Shown here one piece after another: positions 3,293 through 27,681 of a DNA stretch of 64,000 bases. Source of the stretch: Escherichia phage vB_EcoM_DE16; the sequence record OP595145.1; one strand, given 5' to 3'. A program made the translations under genes and the position numbers. How positions within the stretch are numbered: the stretch's first letter is position 1; each line of letters begins with the position of its first letter. The notes beneath the pieces are model-generated. The model was not told the DNA's origin. It ran no database searches and worked only from the letters and a program-made list of their open reading frames with translations.

Positions 3293-4285
3293 TTAAATCT
3301 TCTCACTCCACCATTGAGGGTTGTTTAAGTACCATTCAATCGTTGAGTAGAGATCTTGTTCAAATGTAGAGTTTGCACTCCAACCCAGTTCAGACTCTAT
3401 TTTAGAAGGATTGATTTCATAACGCAAGTCATGTCCTTTACGATCTTCAACAAAAGTTATCAAGTTGGAAGAAGGGTAGGTTCCTGCTTCTGGATGTACA
3501 GCATCCATGTAGTCACAAACCATATAGATGATCTCCATATTGGTTTTGGGATTACGTGTTCCAACATTATACGTTTGACCTGGTTCTCCACCTGTTGCCA
3601 CTTGAAGAATAGCTCGCGCATGATCCTCAACAAAAAGCCAGTCTCGCACCTGATCGCCTTTACCATACACCGGAATCTCTTTATTCGTCAAGATACTTGT
3701 GATGATTTTTGGGATCAGCTTTTCTGGATGTTGATAAGGTCCAAAGTTATTGGAGCAGTTGGTTATCACAACAGGTAAACCGTAGGTACGGTACCAAGCT
3801 TTCACAAGATGGTCAGATGCTGCCTTAGACGCACTGTACGGGCTTGAAGGAGCATAAGCTGTCTCTTCGGTAAAGGGAACGCCAGAGTCTGCCATATCGC
3901 CGTACACTTCGTCTGTGGAGACGTGTACGAACATCTTCAGTTTATTTTTTGGGAGGAGCCTTGCAGCTTCCAATAAATTGTATGTGCCAATAATATTGGA
4001 GTCGATGAAAACTCGTGGATTCTTGATAGAATTATCCACATGACTCTCTGCCGCTAAGTGAATGATGAAATCGGGATTGCACTCTACTACTAAACTTTTG
4101 ACCTGGGTTTCGTTTGCCAAATCTGTTATGCTTAGTTTAACGTGAGTGATATCGCCTACATTCTCAATATCTGCTGCATAGCCCATCTTATCAACGACAA
4201 AAACTTCGTTATTGGGATCTTGACAAAGAGAGCGCACCACGGCACTCCCAATAAAACCAAGACCACCTGTTACCAGATAGCGCAT
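3293..4285 (-). CDS. rmlB: dTDP-glucose 4,6-dehydratase
   Basis: 330 aa; TGGLGFIGS Rossmann motif, STDEVYG and YSASKAASD catalytic motifs of SDR-type dehydratases. Confidence 0.85.
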
Positions 4286-24570: not shown

Positions 24571-24819
24571 ATGTCTCTATTAGAAAAACACGTGTTTGAA
24601 GATGGTAACGGCAATGCAGTTTTTCTTTTCCATCCAGAAAAATACACATCTGAAAACAATGGTACAACTTCTATTGTAATCACTAAAGATGTTAAAGTTA
24701 TTGATTTCTTGGCTCTAATGCGAGAGATGGATCTTGAAATTAATACTTTTAACGCAGAAGCTTTGGTTGTTGCTCTTCTGGAAAAGAAAGATAGTGAAGA
24801 AGTAGCAGAATATGCTTAA
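24571..24819 (+). CDS. hypothetical protein (82 aa)
   Basis: start set at internal ATG 24571 preceded by AGGAGG. Confidence 0.45.
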   Translation: MSLLEKHVFEDGNGNAVFLFHPEKYTSENNGTTSIVITKDVKVIDFLALMREMDLEINTFNAEALVVALLEKKDSEEVAEYA

Positions 24820-24826
24820 ATAACTA

Positions 24827-24856
24827 TTGACAAACGTATCCTTCATATGTTAGGAT
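24827..24856 (+). promoter_or_regulatory. sigma70-like promoter candidate (ACTATTGACA -35 box)
   Basis: TTGACA at 24827 then 17 nt then TTAGGAT; shares motif with the other promoter candidates listed. Confidence 0.35.
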
Positions 24857-25064
24857 ACGTTCATCAAGTGTGGTAAGAGGGTCGTTGACTTTTGTTAAGA
24901 TGGGCTTGCACTGCGGTAGTGTTAGAGACTACTTCTTCAGAGGTTAGCTACCAAAGAGGAAAAGGAATAGTCTCGGCTCAAGAACTTTTACGCTGAAAGT
25001 TGGGCTTGGTCTTAGAGAATGTAGCGGTTCTCTACAATCGTCAGCGTCTCTGTTACCACATTTA

Positions 25065-25139
25065 TGGCCCTGTAGCTCAATGGGAGAGCTGTCGGCTCAT
25101 AACCGATAGGTAGCTGGATCGAAACCAGCCAGGGCCACC
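25065..25139 (+). tRNA. tRNA, anticodon CAT (Ile2 lysidine-type or Met)
   Basis: manual cloverleaf: acceptor GGCCCTG/CAGGGCC, anticodon loop CTCATAA, T-loop, encoded CCA; resembles bacterial tRNA-Ile2. Confidence 0.7.
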
Positions 25140-25142
25140 AAC

Positions 25143-25217
25143 GTCTTTATGGTGTAATGGATAGCACAGGAGTCTTCTAAACTCTTAGTCAAGGTTCGAT
25201 TCCTTGTAAAGACACCA
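25143..25217 (+). tRNA. tRNA-Arg (anticodon TCT)
   Basis: acceptor GTCTTTA/TAAAGAC, anticodon loop CTTCTAA, T-loop GGTTCGATTCC, encoded CCA. Confidence 0.7.
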
Positions 25218-25413
25218 GAATATTTTAACATGAATTAGCTCAAGTGATTTGAACCCCACTACTGATCATGGTGGCAGAGAATGAGGCAAGTATGTCAGAC
25301 ATTATAAACAAAGGCCACGGTTATATTAGAAGACATAGACGCTCGAAGAGCACCGTTCGTGGAGAACGGGGGTTGGTGGAGTCACCATTCATGGTAAAAT
25401 GTTTTAAAAAACT

Positions 25414-25443
25414 ATTGACAACAAACATTATTTTATGTTAGAT
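25414..25443 (+). promoter_or_regulatory. sigma70-like promoter candidate (ACTATTGACA -35 box)
   Basis: TTGACA then 17 nt then TTAGAT, upstream of tRNA-Ser. Confidence 0.4.
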
Positions 25444-25451
25444 TATAAGTA

Positions 25452-25542
25452 TGGAAGGGCAAATCGACGTGGCGACGAAAACGGTCTTGAAAACCGCCGA
25501 GCTTGAAAGAGCCTTGGGAGTTCGACTCTCCCTCCTTCCGCC
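25452..25542 (+). tRNA. tRNA-Ser (anticodon TGA), class II
   Basis: anticodon loop CTTGAAA, long variable arm, T-arm GGGAGTTCGACTCTCCC, discriminator G, encoded CCA; D-arm fold is irregular. Confidence 0.6.
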
Positions 25543-25547
25543 AGATT

Positions 25548-25633
25548 AGGTAGATTGGTGAAATGGTAGCCACAACAGTTTGCTAAACTGTAGTCGGAAA
25601 CGGCGTGTAGGTTCGAGTCCTACATCTACCGCC
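25548..25633 (+). tRNA. tRNA-Ser (anticodon GCT), class II
   Basis: acceptor GGTAGAT/ATCTACC, anticodon loop TTGCTAA, variable-arm hairpin, discriminator G, CCA. Confidence 0.7.
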
Positions 25634-25763
25634 AAGTTCTTTTTAATATAGCTTACTTTAATAGAGTAAACTTTCGGCAGATGGCCTCCACCATCTTACC
25701 GATACTTCATAGTTAGTGGTGCGAACACTGGCTATTTTAAAAAGAATTTAAATACTAGCATTT

Positions 25764-25851
25764 AGGTGAGTTAATTCCGTAGGGGTAGCGGGGCAGACTG
25801 TAAATCTGTTATCATTGCGATTCGGGTGGTTCGACTCCATCACTCACCACC
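25764..25851 (+). tRNA. tRNA-Tyr (anticodon GTA), class II
   Basis: acceptor GGTGAGT/ACTCACC, anticodon loop CTGTAAA, long variable arm, discriminator A, CCA. Confidence 0.7.
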
Positions 25852-25857
25852 AAATTA

Positions 25858-25943
25858 AGATGAGTTGGCTGAATGGTTTAAGCGGCGGACTGTTAATCCG
25901 TGTTCGAAAGAACGATATAGGTTCAAATCCTATACTCATCGCC
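25858..25943 (+). tRNA. class II tRNA with anticodon GTT (Asn anticodon on a Ser/Tyr-type body); identity unresolved
   Basis: perfect 7-bp acceptor GATGAGT/ACTCATC, 3-bp D stem, anticodon stem GCGGA/TCCGT with loop CTGTTAA, 15-nt variable arm (GTTC-GAAA-GAAC), T-arm ATAGGTTCAAATCCTAT, discriminator G, CCA. Confidence 0.6.
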
Positions 25944-25950
25944 AGAATTA

Positions 25951-26027
25951 TGGACTTGTAGAGTTAAGGTAAACCCCCAGTCGCCAAGAGGCTTCTGGAA
26001 TTGCAGGTATCGAATCCTGCCGAGTCC
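25951..26027 (+). tRNA. tRNA-like element with aberrant D/anticodon arms (possible tRNA pseudogene)
   Basis: 7-bp acceptor GGACTTG/CGAGTCC and T-arm GCAGG-TATCGAAT-CCTGC (8-nt loop) but no 5-bp anticodon stem with 7-nt loop; no encoded CCA. Confidence 0.3.
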
Positions 26028-26033
26028 CAGCTT

Positions 26034-26108
26034 TGCTCCTATAGTATAATGGCTATTACAACGGTTTTGTAATCCGTGGATCTCTGTTCGATTCAGAGTG
26101 GGAGCACC
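26034..26108 (+). tRNA. tRNA-Thr (anticodon TGT)
   Basis: acceptor GCTCCTA/TGGGAGC, anticodon loop TTTGTAA, T-arm CTCTGTTCGATTCAGAG, CCA. Confidence 0.65.
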
Positions 26109-26608
26109 AACATAACAGGTAAGAACATTTAGGCTACTGAGAAATCATCCGAGGCAATCAGACCTATCTTCTGTTAAGTGTTCTTATCGTTGTGAAGAAA
26201 GCAAACTTATTGAATGTAAGCGGACGAAAGACATTCACTAACCTGTAGTAAGGTCGAGCCAAAGCGCGGTAATGAGTTCCGAGGTTAGTATTCACAACAC
26301 AACATTAAGAGCACTGTGATTGATCGTCGTATCCTGTGCACAAGGTCTGCTCGAAAGACAGTGTTCTTAGTATTGTGTTGATCACAAAAAGAGTTACCTG
26401 AAACTTGACCGGAGTAGGGTTGGATGGGGCAAAAGAAGAAGCGGCTCTCCCATCGACAGCAACGAAGAATAATATTTGACTTTGGTTTTGTATTATTTTA
26501 AGTTAGCTTACCGAACGTAGGGCTAGTCACCCAATGGGATACTCGTCACTGTCCCACTCAATAAAACTATTGACAACCAATAGTAAAATGTAGTATAGTA
26601 AAGATGTA
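26109..26608 (+). ncRNA. ORF-free, tRNA-free 0.5 kb spacer inside the tRNA cluster; structured ncRNA candidate
   Basis: no ORF of 60 aa or more on either strand, no T-loop motif; long-range complementary pairs AAGAACA/TGTTCTT and TTGTGAA/TTCACAA. Confidence 0.25.
26569..26598 (+). promoter_or_regulatory. sigma70-like promoter candidate (ACTATTGACA -35 box)
   Basis: TTGACA then 18 nt then TATAGT, upstream of tRNA-Gly. Confidence 0.45.
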
Positions 26609-26609
26609 G

Positions 26610-26683
26610 GGCGTTCTTGGTGTAGCGGTAGCATTCCGTCCTTCCAAGTCGGCGGCACGAGTTCGATCCTCGTAGAACGCTCC
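26610..26683 (+). tRNA. tRNA-Gly (anticodon TCC)
   Basis: acceptor GCGTTCT/AGAACGC, anticodon loop CTTCCAA, T-arm ACGAGTTCGATCCTCGT, CCA. Confidence 0.65.
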
Positions 26684-26781
26684 AAATTATTTAATAAAGG
26701 GTTGCCAGAAAACTTTCTCTTTTACTCATGGTTTTCTCCTTCTCTCACACCTCTTCTGGTTGCCCTTCATTAAATGATTTA

Positions 26782-26857
26782 TTGGTTTGTAGTGTAGTCA
26801 GGTAGCACACGACACTTTGACTGTCGTAGGTTTGGTTCAAATCCAGACAGACCAGCC
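26782..26857 (+). tRNA. tRNA-Gln (anticodon TTG)
   Basis: acceptor TGGTTTG/CAGACCA, anticodon stem-loop CGACA-CTTTGAC-TGTCG, T-loop TTCAAAT, CCA. Confidence 0.65.
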
Positions 26858-26862
26858 ATATA

Positions 26863-26939
26863 ACGGAATTTAGCTCAGTTTGGTAGAGTGTACGCTTTGG
26901 GAGCGTATTGTCGCAGGTTCGAATCCTGCAATTCCGACC
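26863..26939 (+). tRNA. tRNA-Pro (anticodon TGG)
   Basis: acceptor CGGAATT/AATTCCG, anticodon stem-loop TACGC-TTTGGGA-GCGTA, T-arm GCAGGTTCGAATCCTGC, CCA. Confidence 0.7.
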
Positions 26940-26945
26940 AATTAA

Positions 26946-27019
26946 ATGTTTCGTAGTTCAATGGTAGAACCCACGACTGATAATCGTGAGACACAAGTTC
27001 GATTCTTGTCGAAACAACC
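26946..27019 (+). tRNA. tRNA-Ile (anticodon GAT)
   Basis: acceptor TGTTTCG/CGAAACA, anticodon stem-loop CACGA-CTGATAA-TCGTG, T-arm, CCA. Confidence 0.7.
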
Positions 27020-27021
27020 AG

Positions 27022-27093
27022 TTTCCCGTTAGACTTACAGGATAAGAGTTCCACAGCTTATTGTGATGCTGGTTCGAATCCAGCACGGGATAC
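27022..27093 (+). tRNA. tRNA-like element lacking a canonical anticodon arm (pseudo-tRNA or non-canonical tRNA)
   Basis: good acceptor (TTCCCGT/ACGGGAT), D-arm and T-arm GCTGGTTCGAATCCAGC, but only 16 nt between D- and T-arms, forming CACAG/TTGTG stem with 4-6 nt loop; 3' end ACC not CCA. Confidence 0.3.
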
Positions 27094-27097
27094 CTAA

Positions 27098-27176
27098 TAG
27101 CGGGATAGAGGAGTCTGGTCGTCCTCGCCAGTTTCATATGCTGGAGATCATTGGTTCAAATCCAATTCCCGCCTCC
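27098..27176 (+). tRNA. tRNA-Met (anticodon CAT), possibly initiator-like
   Basis: anticodon stem-loop CCAGT-TTCATAT-GCTGG, T-loop TTCAAAT, acceptor AGCGGGA/TCCCGCC with A1:C72 mismatch, CCA. Confidence 0.6.
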
Positions 27177-27291
27177 AAATATCGCTTGCCAGCGGTATCT
27201 TTGAAGACCTTGCCTGGTTCCTTCTAAGATGGAGGGGTGCGACTCCTTAACGCACAATTATAATAAAGCATTTCAAATTAACAGTATTTAT

Positions 27292-27315
27292 TAGCCTCCT
27301 TATTGGAGGCTTTTT
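27292..27315 (+). terminator. rho-independent terminator closing the tRNA cluster
   Basis: AGCCTCC-TTATT-GGAGGCT stem-loop followed by TTTTT. Confidence 0.6.
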
Positions 27316-27333
27316 GCTATCTATTGAATAAAA

Positions 27334-27362
27334 CTTGACTTATTATTTTTTATATGTTAAGA
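27334..27362 (+). promoter_or_regulatory. sigma70-like promoter candidate
   Basis: TTGACT then 17 nt then TAAGAT, about 25 nt upstream of the 27385 gene RBS. Confidence 0.4.
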
Positions 27363-27384
27363 TAAAGTTTAGGAGGATTTTATT

Positions 27385-27681
27385 ATGCCTAAACTAAAAC
27401 GTGGTCGTGGAAGACCAACAGCCGAAATGCAACAGATTTACGCAATGGATGCGGCGCAAGCAAGTGTAAAAGAATTATTTGCAGAGCATTATTTAGAAGC
27501 TATGCGGTATATTGTTGAACTTGTTAATGATAAGGATGCAGCAAAACCTCTCCGCTTCCAAGCAGCTAAAGCTATTAAAGAGCAAGTAGAAGAATGGTTA
27601 GAAGAACATTATGAAGCTATGGAAGAAGAAACCCCTGCCGTGCAGAATACAGATGACGTTCCTAAAAAGATCGTAATCTAA
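27385..27681 (+). CDS. small DNA-binding-like protein (KRGRGRP motif); possible small terminase or regulator
   Basis: AGGAGG RBS; basic N-terminus with GRGRP AT-hook-like motif, acidic C-terminus. Confidence 0.4.
   Translation: MPKLKRGRGRPTAEMQQIYAMDAAQASVKELFAEHYLEAMRYIVELVNDKDAAKPLRFQAAKAIKEQVEEWLEEHYEAMEEETPAVQNTDDVPKKIVI

What the first reader, a model, noticed from the sequence alone, without database searches (positions are those of the whole stretch)
26109..26608. 0.5 kb ORF-free, tRNA-free segment inside the tRNA cluster: candidate structured RNA
Between tRNA-Thr and the promoter of tRNA-Gly there is no ORF of 60 aa or more on either strand and no tRNA T-loop motif. The sequence contains long-range complementary pairs (AAGAACA at 26128 with TGTTCTT at 26189; TTGTGAA at about 26190 with TTCACAA at about 26290) and lies inside a transcribed, processed RNA region. 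T4-type tRNA clusters are known to carry small stable RNAs of unknown function, and this could be an analogue.
Basis: inference. Interest (0 to 1): 0.45.

Follow-up and report, generated by a model that had tools for sequence, protein, structure and literature searches.

The report
Swappable structured-RNA cassettes between phage tRNAs
The 0.5-kb gap between two tRNA genes of this E. coli phage is a string of separately folding RNA hairpin modules that also occur, swapped like cassettes, next to tRNA genes and tmRNA-like leaders in many unrelated phages; no RNA-family library or paper I could search describes them.

Summary

It is not one 0.5-kb RNA. It is an array of modules on the tRNA strand:
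- A, 26111-26195
- B, 26189-26299
- C, 26297-26378
- weaker hairpins up to 26556
- the sigma-70 promoter of the tRNA-Gly unit, 26570-26599

The window comes from a Phapecoctavirus. A plus B (26110-26296, 187 nt) is an insertion/deletion flanked by ACAYAACA repeats, and only 4 of 92 related database phages carry it.

A, B and C recur at 78-94% identity in unrelated phages, prophages and phage-plasmids. In the framed contexts examined they lie on the tRNA strand, often directly abutting tRNAs. In many of those genomes they sit behind a tmRNA-like tag leader that the window lacks.

Covariation supports the folds of A and C, and conserved G-U pairs mark the + strand. At least nine unrelated cargo sequences share one basal stem (CACAACAGGUAAGAGCA / UGCUCUUUCCGUUGUG). 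C carries a loop palindrome (GUGCAC, GGGCCC or GCGCGC) that suggests kissing-loop dimerisation.

The modules are not homologous to T4 rnaC/rnaD. Their function is inferred, not shown.

The parts
26035..26109 (+). tRNA-Thr (UGU) with encoded CCA. Module A's frame starts at the next base.
   Evidence: ARAGORN; Rfam tRNA, 59.5 bits.
26110..26296 (+). 187-nt insertion/deletion block, equal to module A plus module B. It is bounded by direct repeats ACATAACA (26110-26117) and ACACAACA (26297-26304).
   Evidence: Alignment A1. The block is absent from Mt1B1_P17, nieznany and WPEC1. Among 92 database relatives only SF1-1, phiWec190, phiWec188 and PsgM04F carry it.
26111..26195 (+). Module A, a framed hairpin.
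- Basal stem: CAUAAC 26111-26116 with GUUGUG 26189-26194.
- P1: 26119-26131 with 26175-26187.
- A 43-nt nearly invariant three-way-junction core at 26132-26174, containing P2 (UGA-GAAA-UCA, 26138-26147) and P3 (CAGA/UCUG, 26159-26173).
   Evidence: - Fold z = -3.56 on + against -0.65 on -.
- Alignment A2, alifold and pair counts: 96.5% of cells paired, covariation 0.340 against 0.146 in shuffles (0 of 500 reach it), 6 pairs with double changes.
- Homologues at 87-94% identity in Gamaleyavirus, Taipeivirus, Jedunavirus, siphovirus Bas81 and Xanthomonas jumbo phage XbC2.
26189..26299 (+). Module B, an 'inverse-frame' unit closed by GUUGUGAA 26189-26196 with UUCACAAC 26291-26298.
- It contains the hairpin GAAUGU/ACAUUC (26211-26236).
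- It contains the widely conserved B core at 26237-26277 (ACU-AACCUGUAGUAAGGUCGAGCCAAAGCGCGGUAAUG-AGU).
   Evidence: - Fold (z only -0.99).
- Homologues in Pylasvirus, 46-47-kb siphovirus contigs, about 700 T4-like phages and 116-121-kb contigs.
- The closing 3-bp helix of the core covaries: CG 8 / UA 7, and CG 14 / GC 1.
- The interior is invariant, so its fold is unresolved.
26297..26378 (+). Module C, a long framed hairpin of 29 pairs. The apical stem CCU/AGG (26333-26335 with 26343-26345) closes a 7-nt loop GUGCACA (26336-26342) that carries the 6-nt palindrome GUGCAC.
   Evidence: - Fold z = -3.22.
- Alignment A5, 33 distinct sequences: 94.6% paired, covariation 0.288 against 0.101 (0 of 500), slid controls 0.068 or lower, 10 pairs with double changes, invariant G-U pairs.
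- Loop palindrome intact in 65 of 68 occurrences, in three versions.
26423..26454 (+). Hairpin D (GAUGGGG ... CUCCCAUC). The stem is conserved and the loop differs between phapecoctavirus alleles. Support is weak.
   Evidence: Alignment A1. The fold of 26386-26470 is not better than shuffles, z = +0.56.
26458..26509 (+). Allelic block E. Here it is an AU-rich hairpin. SF1-1, phiWec188/190 and PsgM04F carry an unrelated sequence at the same place.
   Evidence: Alignment A1, columns about 428-476; fold.
26510..26556 (+). Conserved tail with two small hairpins: GGG/CCC (26520-26532) and UGGGA/UCCCA (26535-26556). No covariation is available.
   Evidence: Nearly invariant in alignment A1. Fold of 26455-26565 gives z = -1.94.
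26570..26599 (+). Sigma-70-type promoter TTGACA-18-TATAGT for the tRNA-Gly/Gln/Pro/Ile/Met unit. It belongs to the repeated AAAACTATTGACAA early-promoter motif.
   Evidence: Promoter scan, 11 of 12 positions. The same motif occurs at 24827 and 25415. It is annotated as repeat_region in phage nieznany.

Best explanation
The interval is the 3' part of a polycistronic tRNA transcript, with its promoter at 25415. It encodes a row of independently folding structured-RNA cassettes, not tRNAs or proteins.

Architecture:
- Each framed cassette is a long hairpin. Its basal stem is a shared 'frame': 5' CACAACAGGUAAGAGCA ... UGCUCUUUCCGUUGUG 3', here in slightly diverged form.
- The tip of the hairpin carries a sequence-conserved 'cargo'. 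A is a three-way junction. C is a hairpin with a self-complementary loop.
- Framed hairpins alternate with units closed by the inverse pairing GUUGUG...CACAAC. B is such a unit.

Processing (inferred): the frames start directly after a tRNA's CCA and can end directly before the next tRNA. Ordinary tRNA maturation (RNase P at the 5' side, RNase E or exonucleases at the 3' side), and possibly RNase III on the 20-30-bp stems, should therefore release the cassettes as discrete small RNAs.

Evolution: the repeated frame sequence also gives homology for recombination. This explains cassette gain, loss and exchange within and between phage families. The 187-nt A+B block is one such period.

Function (inferred): the near-invariance of the cargo cores across very distant phages argues that the cargo acts through a sequence-specific partner. 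Module C probably pairs with a second copy of itself through its palindromic loop.

Shown here: the structure, the strand, the modularity, the distribution and the indel.
Inferred: transcription, processing, dimerisation and any trans-acting function.
For: 1. No tRNA, no Rfam family and no conserved ORF.

2. Strand-specific folding:
- A: z = -3.56 on + and -0.65 on -.
- C: z = -3.22 on + and -1.76 on -.
- G-U pairs are invariant in all 33 sequences of module C.

3. Covariation:
- A: 0.340 against 0.146 in shuffles, slid controls 0.098 or lower.
- C: 0.288 against 0.101, slid controls 0.068 or lower.
- B core: closing helix only.

4. Modules recur in unrelated phages:
- A in N4-like, Ackermannviridae, Jedunavirus, siphovirus and Xanthomonas jumbo phages.
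- B in N4-like, siphovirus, T4-like and 116-121-kb contigs.
- C in siphoviruses, prophage-like contigs and SSU5-like phage-plasmids.

5. At least 9 unrelated cargo families sit on the same frame.

6. Link to tRNAs:
- In XbC2, module A lies about 10 nt after tRNA-Tyr.
- In pCP53 the same tRNA-Thr-CCA + ACACAACAGGUAAGAGCA layout occurs.
- 31 of 55 module-C contigs have tRNAs within about 0.5 kb, always on the same strand.
- In L024, L034 and L063 the frame ends at the first base of a tRNA.

7. The A+B indel is bounded by ACAYAACA repeats, and the alleles are mosaic: two tRNA-Thr alleles, A+B present or absent, two E alleles.

8. Promoters lie at 25415 and 26570 and the only terminator-like site after them is at 27293.

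9. The loop palindrome of C keeps its self-complementarity in three versions, 65 of 68 occurrences.
Against: - There are no expression data. Transcription, processing and stability are inferred from gene order and consensus promoters only.
- Module B as a whole does not fold better than shuffles (z = -0.99), and its core fold is ambiguous.
- 26386-26470 shows no structural signal (z = +0.56).
- The covariation tests use related sequences, so the number of independent events is small. Module A rests on about 3 lineages, and the loop palindrome on one covarying pair.
- 88 of 92 sister phages do without A+B, so these two modules are dispensable for the phage.
- 24 of 55 module-C contigs have no nearby tRNA, and the T4-like copies of the B core are far from tRNAs. 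Cargo function is therefore not tied to tRNA maturation.
- No binding partner or phenotype is known.
Confidence: 0.62

Rival explanations
1. The hairpins are passive processing or insulator elements. They only separate tRNAs in the precursor, set RNase cleavage sites or block 3' exonucleases, and have no function once released.
For: - Frames abut the tRNA CCA and tRNA 5' ends.
- A+B is dispensable in most sister phages.
- The long stems are plausible RNase III substrates (inference).
Against: - A spacer needs only a stem. Yet the 43-nt core of A is nearly invariant between E. coli phages and a Xanthomonas jumbo phage, while its closing stem has changed completely.
- The B core and module C also occur without any tRNA nearby.
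Confidence: 0.2
2. The conserved features act at the DNA level. They would be hairpin or palindromic recombination or protein-binding sites, comparable to attC sites or MITE-like elements. The RNA folds would be a by-product.
For: - The indel lies exactly between short direct repeats, and the alleles are mosaic.
- The frames are inverted repeats around a variable centre.
- GTGCAC, GGGCCC and GCGCGC are DNA palindromes.
Against: - Many conserved G-U pairs would be A-C mismatches on the other strand.
- The folding signal is strand-asymmetric.
- Orientation always equals that of the neighbouring tRNAs, 31 of 31.
- No recombinase was found to be consistently linked. This was not searched systematically.
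Confidence: 0.08
3. Module A is a new self-cleaving ribozyme that trims the 3' trailer of the upstream tRNA, as theta (HDV-like) ribozymes do in gut phages.
For: - It sits directly 3' of a tRNA in the window, in XbC2 and in 1611E-K2-1.
- Its core shows ribozyme-like sequence invariance in a small junction.
- tRNA-linked ribozymes exist in phages (PMC10879173).
Against: - No HDV-like nested pseudoknot was found: my own descriptor gave 0 hits in 26100-26420.
- No Rfam ribozyme family matches at E<=10.
- In N4-like, Taipeivirus and Bas81 arrays the same module lies hundreds of nucleotides from any tRNA.
Confidence: 0.06
4. The segment is decayed tRNA genes or encodes small proteins below the 60-aa cut-off.
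For: - The cluster does contain degenerate tRNA-like sequences elsewhere: 25453-25539, 25765-25849, about 25950-26034 and about 27021-27098.
- Some depositors annotated tiny ORFs here.
Against: - No tRNA-model hit in 26110-26610, even at E<=10.
- The 43-aa minus-strand ORF is broken by stops or a frameshift in PsgM04F, KpCHEMY26 and L080.
- The 25-aa plus-strand ORF is 'MG*' in phiWec190 and PsgM04F and 12 aa in SF1-1.
Confidence: 0.03

Closest known systems
T4 species 1 and species 2 RNAs (rnaC, rnaD)
   Same: They are small non-tRNA RNAs encoded inside a phage tRNA cluster, on the tRNA strand, and presumably cut out of the same precursor. Their function is likewise unknown.
   Different: - No sequence similarity.
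- T4 rnaC ends in a tRNA-like T-arm, which the window modules lack.
- The window modules are framed hairpin cassettes shared across phage families. That is not known for rnaC/rnaD (own knowledge).
tmRNA (ssrA) pseudoknot domain
   Same: - In many other phages, prophages and phage-plasmids the same cassettes follow a tmRNA-like PK1 plus tag reading frame (ANDDVVLMAA*, ANEEVYLAVA* and others) and two pseudoknot-like units.
- The 5' half of module B is 77-79% identical over 34-35 nt to E. coli ssrA nt 278-312, the PK4 region.
   Different: - The window has no tag frame and no tRNA-like domain in the interval.
- Even the other phages' leaders stay below the Rfam gathering scores: 27-34 bits against 47. 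ARAGORN does not call them.
- The ssrA similarity is short and weak.
Theta / HDV-like ribozymes next to phage tRNAs (PMC10879173)
   Same: A small structured RNA placed immediately 3' of a phage tRNA.
   Different: No nested double pseudoknot with a catalytic C and no Rfam HDV-type match.
GOLLD and ROOL large phage RNAs
   Same: They are ORF-free ornate RNAs of phages and prophages, commonly beside tRNA genes, and are known to multimerise (own knowledge; review PMC12990946).
   Different: - No match to their Rfam models at any threshold.
- Here the unit is an 80-110-nt exchangeable cassette, not one 600-800-nt fold.
HIV-1 dimerisation initiation site (kissing-loop hairpin)
   Same: A hairpin loop carrying a 6-nt G/C-rich palindrome. 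GUGCAC and GCGCGC are also the two HIV-1 DIS variants (own knowledge). Here the variants keep self-complementarity.
   Different: - The loop is 7 nt, not 9 nt.
- The context is a bacteriophage.
- Dimerisation was not tested.

Membership tests
T4-type small stable RNAs (rnaC/rnaD) | Encoded within the phage tRNA cluster on the tRNA strand, inside the same transcription unit | tested here: met
   The interval lies between tRNA-Thr and tRNA-Gly, downstream of the promoter at 25415, with no terminator before 27293.
T4-type small stable RNAs (rnaC/rnaD) | Sequence or structure homology to T4 rnaC or rnaD | tested here: not met
   BLAST of window 24800-27400 against T4 63000-74500 gives only tRNA-to-tRNA hits and a 38-nt hit in the denV-vs.8 region.
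T4-type small stable RNAs (rnaC/rnaD) | Accumulates as a stable processed RNA in infected cells | not testable with these tools
   Needs Northern blot or RNA-seq.
tmRNA (ssrA) | tRNA-like domain: acceptor stem, T-arm, CCA | tested here: not met
   ARAGORN and Rfam at E<=10 find none in 26110-26610.
tmRNA (ssrA) | Tag reading frame with resume codon (GCA AAC GAx ...) | tested here: not met
   There is no GCAAACGAYGA-like site in the window's tRNA cluster. It is present in other phages' arrays.
tmRNA (ssrA) | Similarity to the tmRNA pseudoknots | tested here: inconclusive
   Module B against E. coli ssrA nt 280-312: 77% over 35 nt, E = 0.015 in a 363-nt search space.
HDV-like / theta ribozymes | Nested double pseudoknot (P1, P1.1, P2, P3) with a catalytic C in J4/2 | tested here: not met
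   (own descriptor, 0 hits; shuffles average 1.1). (no Rfam HDV-type hit).
HDV-like / theta ribozymes | Located directly next to a phage tRNA | tested here: met
GOLLD / ROOL | Match to the family covariance model | tested here: not met
tRNA or tRNA pseudogene | Cloverleaf detectable by the tRNA covariance model | tested here: not met
   There is no RF00005 hit in the interval at E<=10.
Kissing-loop dimerisation hairpin (DIS type) | Hairpin loop with a 6-nt self-complementary sequence that stays self-complementary when it varies | tested here: met
   GUGCAC 29, GGGCCC 26, GCGCGC 10, non-palindromic GUGCCC 3.
Kissing-loop dimerisation hairpin (DIS type) | Forms a loop-loop homodimer | not testable with these tools
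   Needs native gel, AUC or SAXS with loop mutants.
DNA hairpin recombination site (attC-like) or MITE | Pairing equally possible on both strands, and a linked recombinase or transposase | tested here: not met
   Conserved G-U pairs and strand-asymmetric z-scores. Linkage to a recombinase was not searched systematically.

The most novel reading that the evidence does not exclude
The cassettes are domains of a so far undescribed class of phage RNAs derived from tmRNA.
- These would be long transcripts that begin with a tmRNA-like pseudoknot and tag reading frame but have no tRNA-like domain.
- They carry exchangeable structured 'cargo' hairpins and embedded tRNAs.
- They self-associate through palindromic kissing loops.
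- They act on the host's translation or ribosome-rescue machinery, or decoy an RNA-targeting defence.

The window would hold a stripped-down version, with cassettes and tRNAs but no tag leader.
Probability: 0.15. Interest if true: 0.85.

Novelty: new variant of a known kind. Interest (0 to 1): 0.6.

Why it matters
Phage tRNA clusters are now seen as counter-defence and translation-control loci, but the non-tRNA RNA in them has been ignored since T4 species 1 and 2.

This window shows three things about that spacer RNA:
- It can be a set of conserved, covariation-supported modules.
- The modules move between phage families as different as N4-like, T4-like, Ackermannviridae, siphoviruses, jumbo phages and phage-plasmids.
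- They are missing from Rfam.

If the modules have trans-acting partners, they form a new pool of phage small RNAs. Their link to tmRNA-like tag leaders lacking an evident tRNA domain would open a testable question about phage interference with ribosome rescue.

At a practical level, annotators currently place spurious tiny ORFs on these sequences.

Tried and rejected
- **Rfam 15.** Searched at the gathering threshold on the whole window, at E<=10 on 24800-27500, and at E<=10 on 26100-26570 alone. Nothing relevant was found.
- **ARAGORN** for tRNA or tmRNA. None in the interval.
- **Homology to T4 rnaC/rnaD**. None.
- **HDV-like/theta ribozyme descriptor**. 0 hits.
- **Small-ORF conservation**. 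The ORFs are not conserved.
- **Host mimicry.** BLAST of 26100-26560 against 5,426 E. coli genomes shows only module C, in about 110-kb phage-plasmids and 11 chromosomal sites. No host RNA gene matches.
- **Genome-contig scan** with the module-A 19-mer. The 4 hits have no flanking similarity and equal the roughly 4 expected by chance.
- **Metagenome scan**. It added only close relatives of copies already known.
- **Resolving the fold of the B core**. Two folds fit equally well because the interior is invariant.
- **Literature searches** on phage tmRNA-like RNAs, phapecoctavirus transcriptomes and tRNA-cluster small RNAs. I found no description of these modules.
- **Other spacers of the window's tRNA cluster.** They share nothing with the non-phapecoctavirus loci fetched.

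Full report
**Context**

The window belongs to a Phapecoctavirus (phAPEC8-like, Stephanstirmvirinae). The interval plus flanks matches 92 phage records. The flanking tRNAs are 97-99% identical to Mt1B1_P17, dw-ec, Schickermooser and others (annotation).

The tRNA cluster spans 25066-27177 on the + strand. Three sigma-70-type promoters sharing the AAAACTATTGACAA motif drive it, at 24827, 25415 and 26570. One terminator-like hairpin lies at 27293-27311. The finding (26110-26610) is therefore the 3' part of the second unit plus the third promoter.

**Check of the observation**

- ARAGORN and Rfam find no tRNA, tmRNA or any other family in the interval, even at E<=10 on the 471 nt alone.
- No ORF of 60 aa or more exists there.
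They are the closing stems of two modules in the predicted folds.
- The + strand folds better than shuffles (z = -2.48). The - strand does not (z = -0.45).

**Anatomy**

An alignment with eight relatives shows that 26110-26296 (187 nt) is a clean insertion/deletion.
- It is bounded by ACATAACA (26110-26117) and ACACAACA (26297-26304).
- Only SF1-1, phiWec188, phiWec190 and PsgM04F share it, which is 4 of 92 records.
- A second block, about 26458-26509, exists in two unrelated alleles.
- The combinations of tRNA-Thr allele, A+B presence and block-E allele are mosaic. The interval has therefore been reshuffled by recombination.

BLAST of the parts against 50,697 phage records splits the interval into modules that recur in unrelated phages.

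Module A (26111-26195) occurs at 87-94% identity in:
- Gamaleyavirus nithesis
- Taipeivirus UPM2146
- Jedunavirus 1611E-K2-1
- siphovirus Bas81
- the Xanthomonas jumbo phage XbC2, where it lies about 10 nt after tRNA-Tyr and before a second tRNA

Module B (26189-26299) occurs in:
- Pylasvirus (Pylas, KpCHEMY26) and 46-47-kb siphovirus contigs
- about 700 T4-like phages, where only its 38-42-nt core is present, in the denV-vs.8 spacer
- 116-121-kb contigs

Module C (26297-26378) occurs in:
- siphoviruses (Bas77, Bas81, SCNJ1-C, Sashavirus)
- 55 IMG/VR contigs
- about 80 E. coli SSU5-like phage-plasmids

**The shared frame**

Reading these loci shows that the modules sit on a common scaffold.
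- A basal stem 5' CACAACAGGUAAGAGCA ... UGCUCUUUCCGUUGUG 3' carries different apical sequences.
- A pattern scan of the loci fetched finds at least nine unrelated cargo families on this frame.
- Framed hairpins alternate with units closed by the inverse pairing GUUGUG(GUGAA) ... (C)CACAAC.
- In the window the frames are slightly diverged: CAUAAC-AGG-UAAGAACA for A, and CAACACAAC-AUU-AAGAGCAC for C.
- The 187-nt indel equals one period, a framed hairpin A plus an inverse unit B, between two copies of the ACAYAACA frame sequence. Recombination between frames explains its gain or loss.

**Evidence that the structure is RNA**

Module A (10 sequences, about three lineages):
- 96.5% of cells are paired.
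- Six pairs have compensatory double changes.
- The covariation score is 0.340, against 0.146 in shuffles (0 of 500 reach it) and 0.098 or lower when partners are slid.
- The closing stem is AAGAACA/UGUUCUU here and ACACUAC/GUAGUGU in XbC2.
- The inner GAAA hairpin changes UGA/UCA to UGC/GCA.
- The 43-nt junction core (26132-26174) is otherwise nearly invariant.

Module C (33 distinct sequences):
- 94.6% of cells are paired.
- Ten pairs have double changes.
- The covariation score is 0.288 against 0.101 (0 of 500), with slid controls at 0.068 or lower.
- Several G-U pairs are invariant in all sequences. On the opposite strand they would be A-C mismatches.
- Single-module folds agree: A gives z = -3.56 on + and -0.65 on -. 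C gives -3.22 and -1.76.

Module B is weaker.
- The whole unit has z = -0.99.
- Only the 3-bp helix that closes its conserved core covaries (CG 8 / UA 7, and CG 14 / GC 1).
- The invariant interior fits two folds equally well.

The region 26386-26470 has no structural signal (z = +0.56). For 26455-26565 the z-score is -1.94, with no covariation available.

**The loop of module C**

The 7-nt apical loop carries a 6-nt palindrome: GUGCAC in the window, GGGCCC or GCGCGC elsewhere. It is intact in 65 of 68 occurrences. The covarying loop positions show GC 15, CG 9, UA 7, other 2. These positions are two bases apart and cannot pair within one loop. The simplest reading is loop-loop pairing between two molecules, as in retroviral dimerisation hairpins. 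This rests on one covarying pair and few independent events, so it is a hypothesis.

**Link to tRNAs and to tmRNA-like leaders**

- Frames begin at the base after CCA in the window, in pCP53, in L031 and in 1611E-K2-1. In L024, L034 and L063 they end at the first base of a tRNA.
- Of 55 module-C contigs, 31 have tRNAs within about 0.5 kb, always on the same strand.
- 22 contigs have, upstream on the same strand and never elsewhere, a short reading frame that looks like a tmRNA tag (ANEEVYLAVA*, ANDDVVLMAA* and others). A pseudoknot-like element precedes it and two follow it.
- Rfam scores these leaders below threshold: tmRNA_permuted 27-34 bits against 47, beta_tmRNA 18-21 bits. ARAGORN does not call them.
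- I saw no tRNA-like domain at their 5' ends.
- The window has no such tag.
- The 5' half of module B resembles E. coli ssrA nt 278-312 (77-79% over 34-35 nt). This is a weak lead that the cassettes derive from tmRNA pseudoknots.

**Alternatives**

- Protein coding is excluded by non-conservation of the small ORFs.
- Decayed tRNAs are excluded by the tRNA model.
- An HDV-like/theta ribozyme was tested with a descriptor and not found.
- A purely DNA-level role fits the indel and the palindromes, but not the G-U pairs, the strand asymmetry or the constant orientation.
- A purely passive spacer role fits the position, but not the near-invariant cargo cores or the copies that lie far from tRNAs.

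**Most likely mechanism**

The interval is transcribed from the promoter at 25415 together with the upstream tRNAs. tRNA maturation, and perhaps RNase III on the long stems, releases the cassettes as small structured RNAs. The frames double as recombination homology that lets cassettes move. The cargo acts through sequence-specific contacts, and C acts through self-pairing. Only the structure, strand, modularity and distribution are shown here. The rest is inference.

**Novelty**

Nothing in Rfam 15 or in the searchable literature describes these modules. The nearest known things are T4 rnaC/rnaD (same position, no homology), tmRNA pseudoknots, theta ribozymes (PMC10879173) and the tRNA-adjacent GOLLD/ROOL RNAs. 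I rate it a new variant of a known kind, namely structured small RNAs embedded in phage tRNA operons. Its cassette architecture is unusual.

Noticed in passing
L023 380-1120; L019 1300-1710; L020 1310-1900; L021 1290-1860; L009 2130-2920; L010 2330-2720; L013 2470-2760; L011 1830-2200: Unrelated phages, prophage-like contigs and SSU5-like phage-plasmids carry a long ORF-free transcript unit. It starts with a tmRNA-like pseudoknot and a tag reading frame (GCA AAC GAx ... TAA, giving ANDDVVLMAA, ANEEVYLAVA, ANEDRFLMAA or ANDNTFLAVA). I saw no tRNA-like domain at its 5' end, though I did not look for one further along the arrays. Rfam tmRNA models score it below threshold and ARAGORN misses it.
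   Followed up: partly
window 25453-25539: Directly after the promoter at 25415 lies a long-variable-arm tRNA-like sequence with an apparent UGA anticodon. It scores 37.4 bits against tRNA-Sec (gathering score 47) and ARAGORN does not call it. In phiWec190, ARAGORN calls a tRNA-Ser(UGA) just upstream of tRNA-Ser(GCU), in a comparable position; I did not align the two.
   Followed up: no
window 25765-25849: Rfam finds a tRNA (39 bits) that ARAGORN does not report. Relatives annotate it as tRNA-Tyr or 'tRNA-Pseudo-GTA'.
   Followed up: no
window ~25950-26034 and ~27021-27098: Two more tRNA-like remnants with T-arm-like GGTATCGAATCC and GGTTCGAATCC and partial acceptor pairing. Neither tool calls them. 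They are probably decayed or atypical tRNAs.
   Followed up: no
window 26690-26782: The spacer between tRNA-Gly and tRNA-Gln can form a long hairpin (AAGGGUUGCCAGAA ... UUCUGGUUGCCCUU). Nieznany has an extra ~90 nt between tRNA-Gln and tRNA-Pro that the window lacks, so other spacers of the cluster also vary by indels.
   Followed up: no
L022 1860-1897 (T4 64859-64896); L008 2501-2542: The module-B core lies inside the annotated 5' end of T4 vs.8. In phage Paracelsus the corresponding frame has a stop (ATG ATT CTG TGA) and the homologous gene is annotated 40 codons shorter. The T4 vs.8 start may therefore be over-extended across a conserved RNA element.
   Followed up: partly
L011 1000-4050: Klebsiella Taipeivirus UPM2146 has about 3 kb with no annotated gene. 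It contains the tmRNA-like leader, module A, other hairpin units and an STnc100 match at exactly the gathering score (47 bits, 3498-3711).
   Followed up: no
L040 2800-3200: In a contig that looks like a lambdoid prophage (judged from reading the sequence only), cassette C plus the GUGGUGAAUGCGCAGGCUGAUGCGC unit lie between two terminator-like hairpins. They follow what looks like a Q-type antiterminator gene (read from the sequence, not searched) and a TTGACA promoter, which would place them in the late-operon leader.
   Followed up: no
window 24857-25065: About 200 nt of ORF-free leader lie between the first promoter (24827) and tRNA-Met. It has no match in the non-phapecoctavirus loci fetched.
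   Followed up: partly
L098, L103, L107, L110: Several metagenome contigs hit by the module-A 19-mer carry an unrelated short tandem-like repeat (GGAGGCAATCAAGGACCATCAGAGGCCATCCGAGGCAATCAGACCTGATCCGAAAA). It is not homologous to module A beyond the 19-mer.
   Followed up: no
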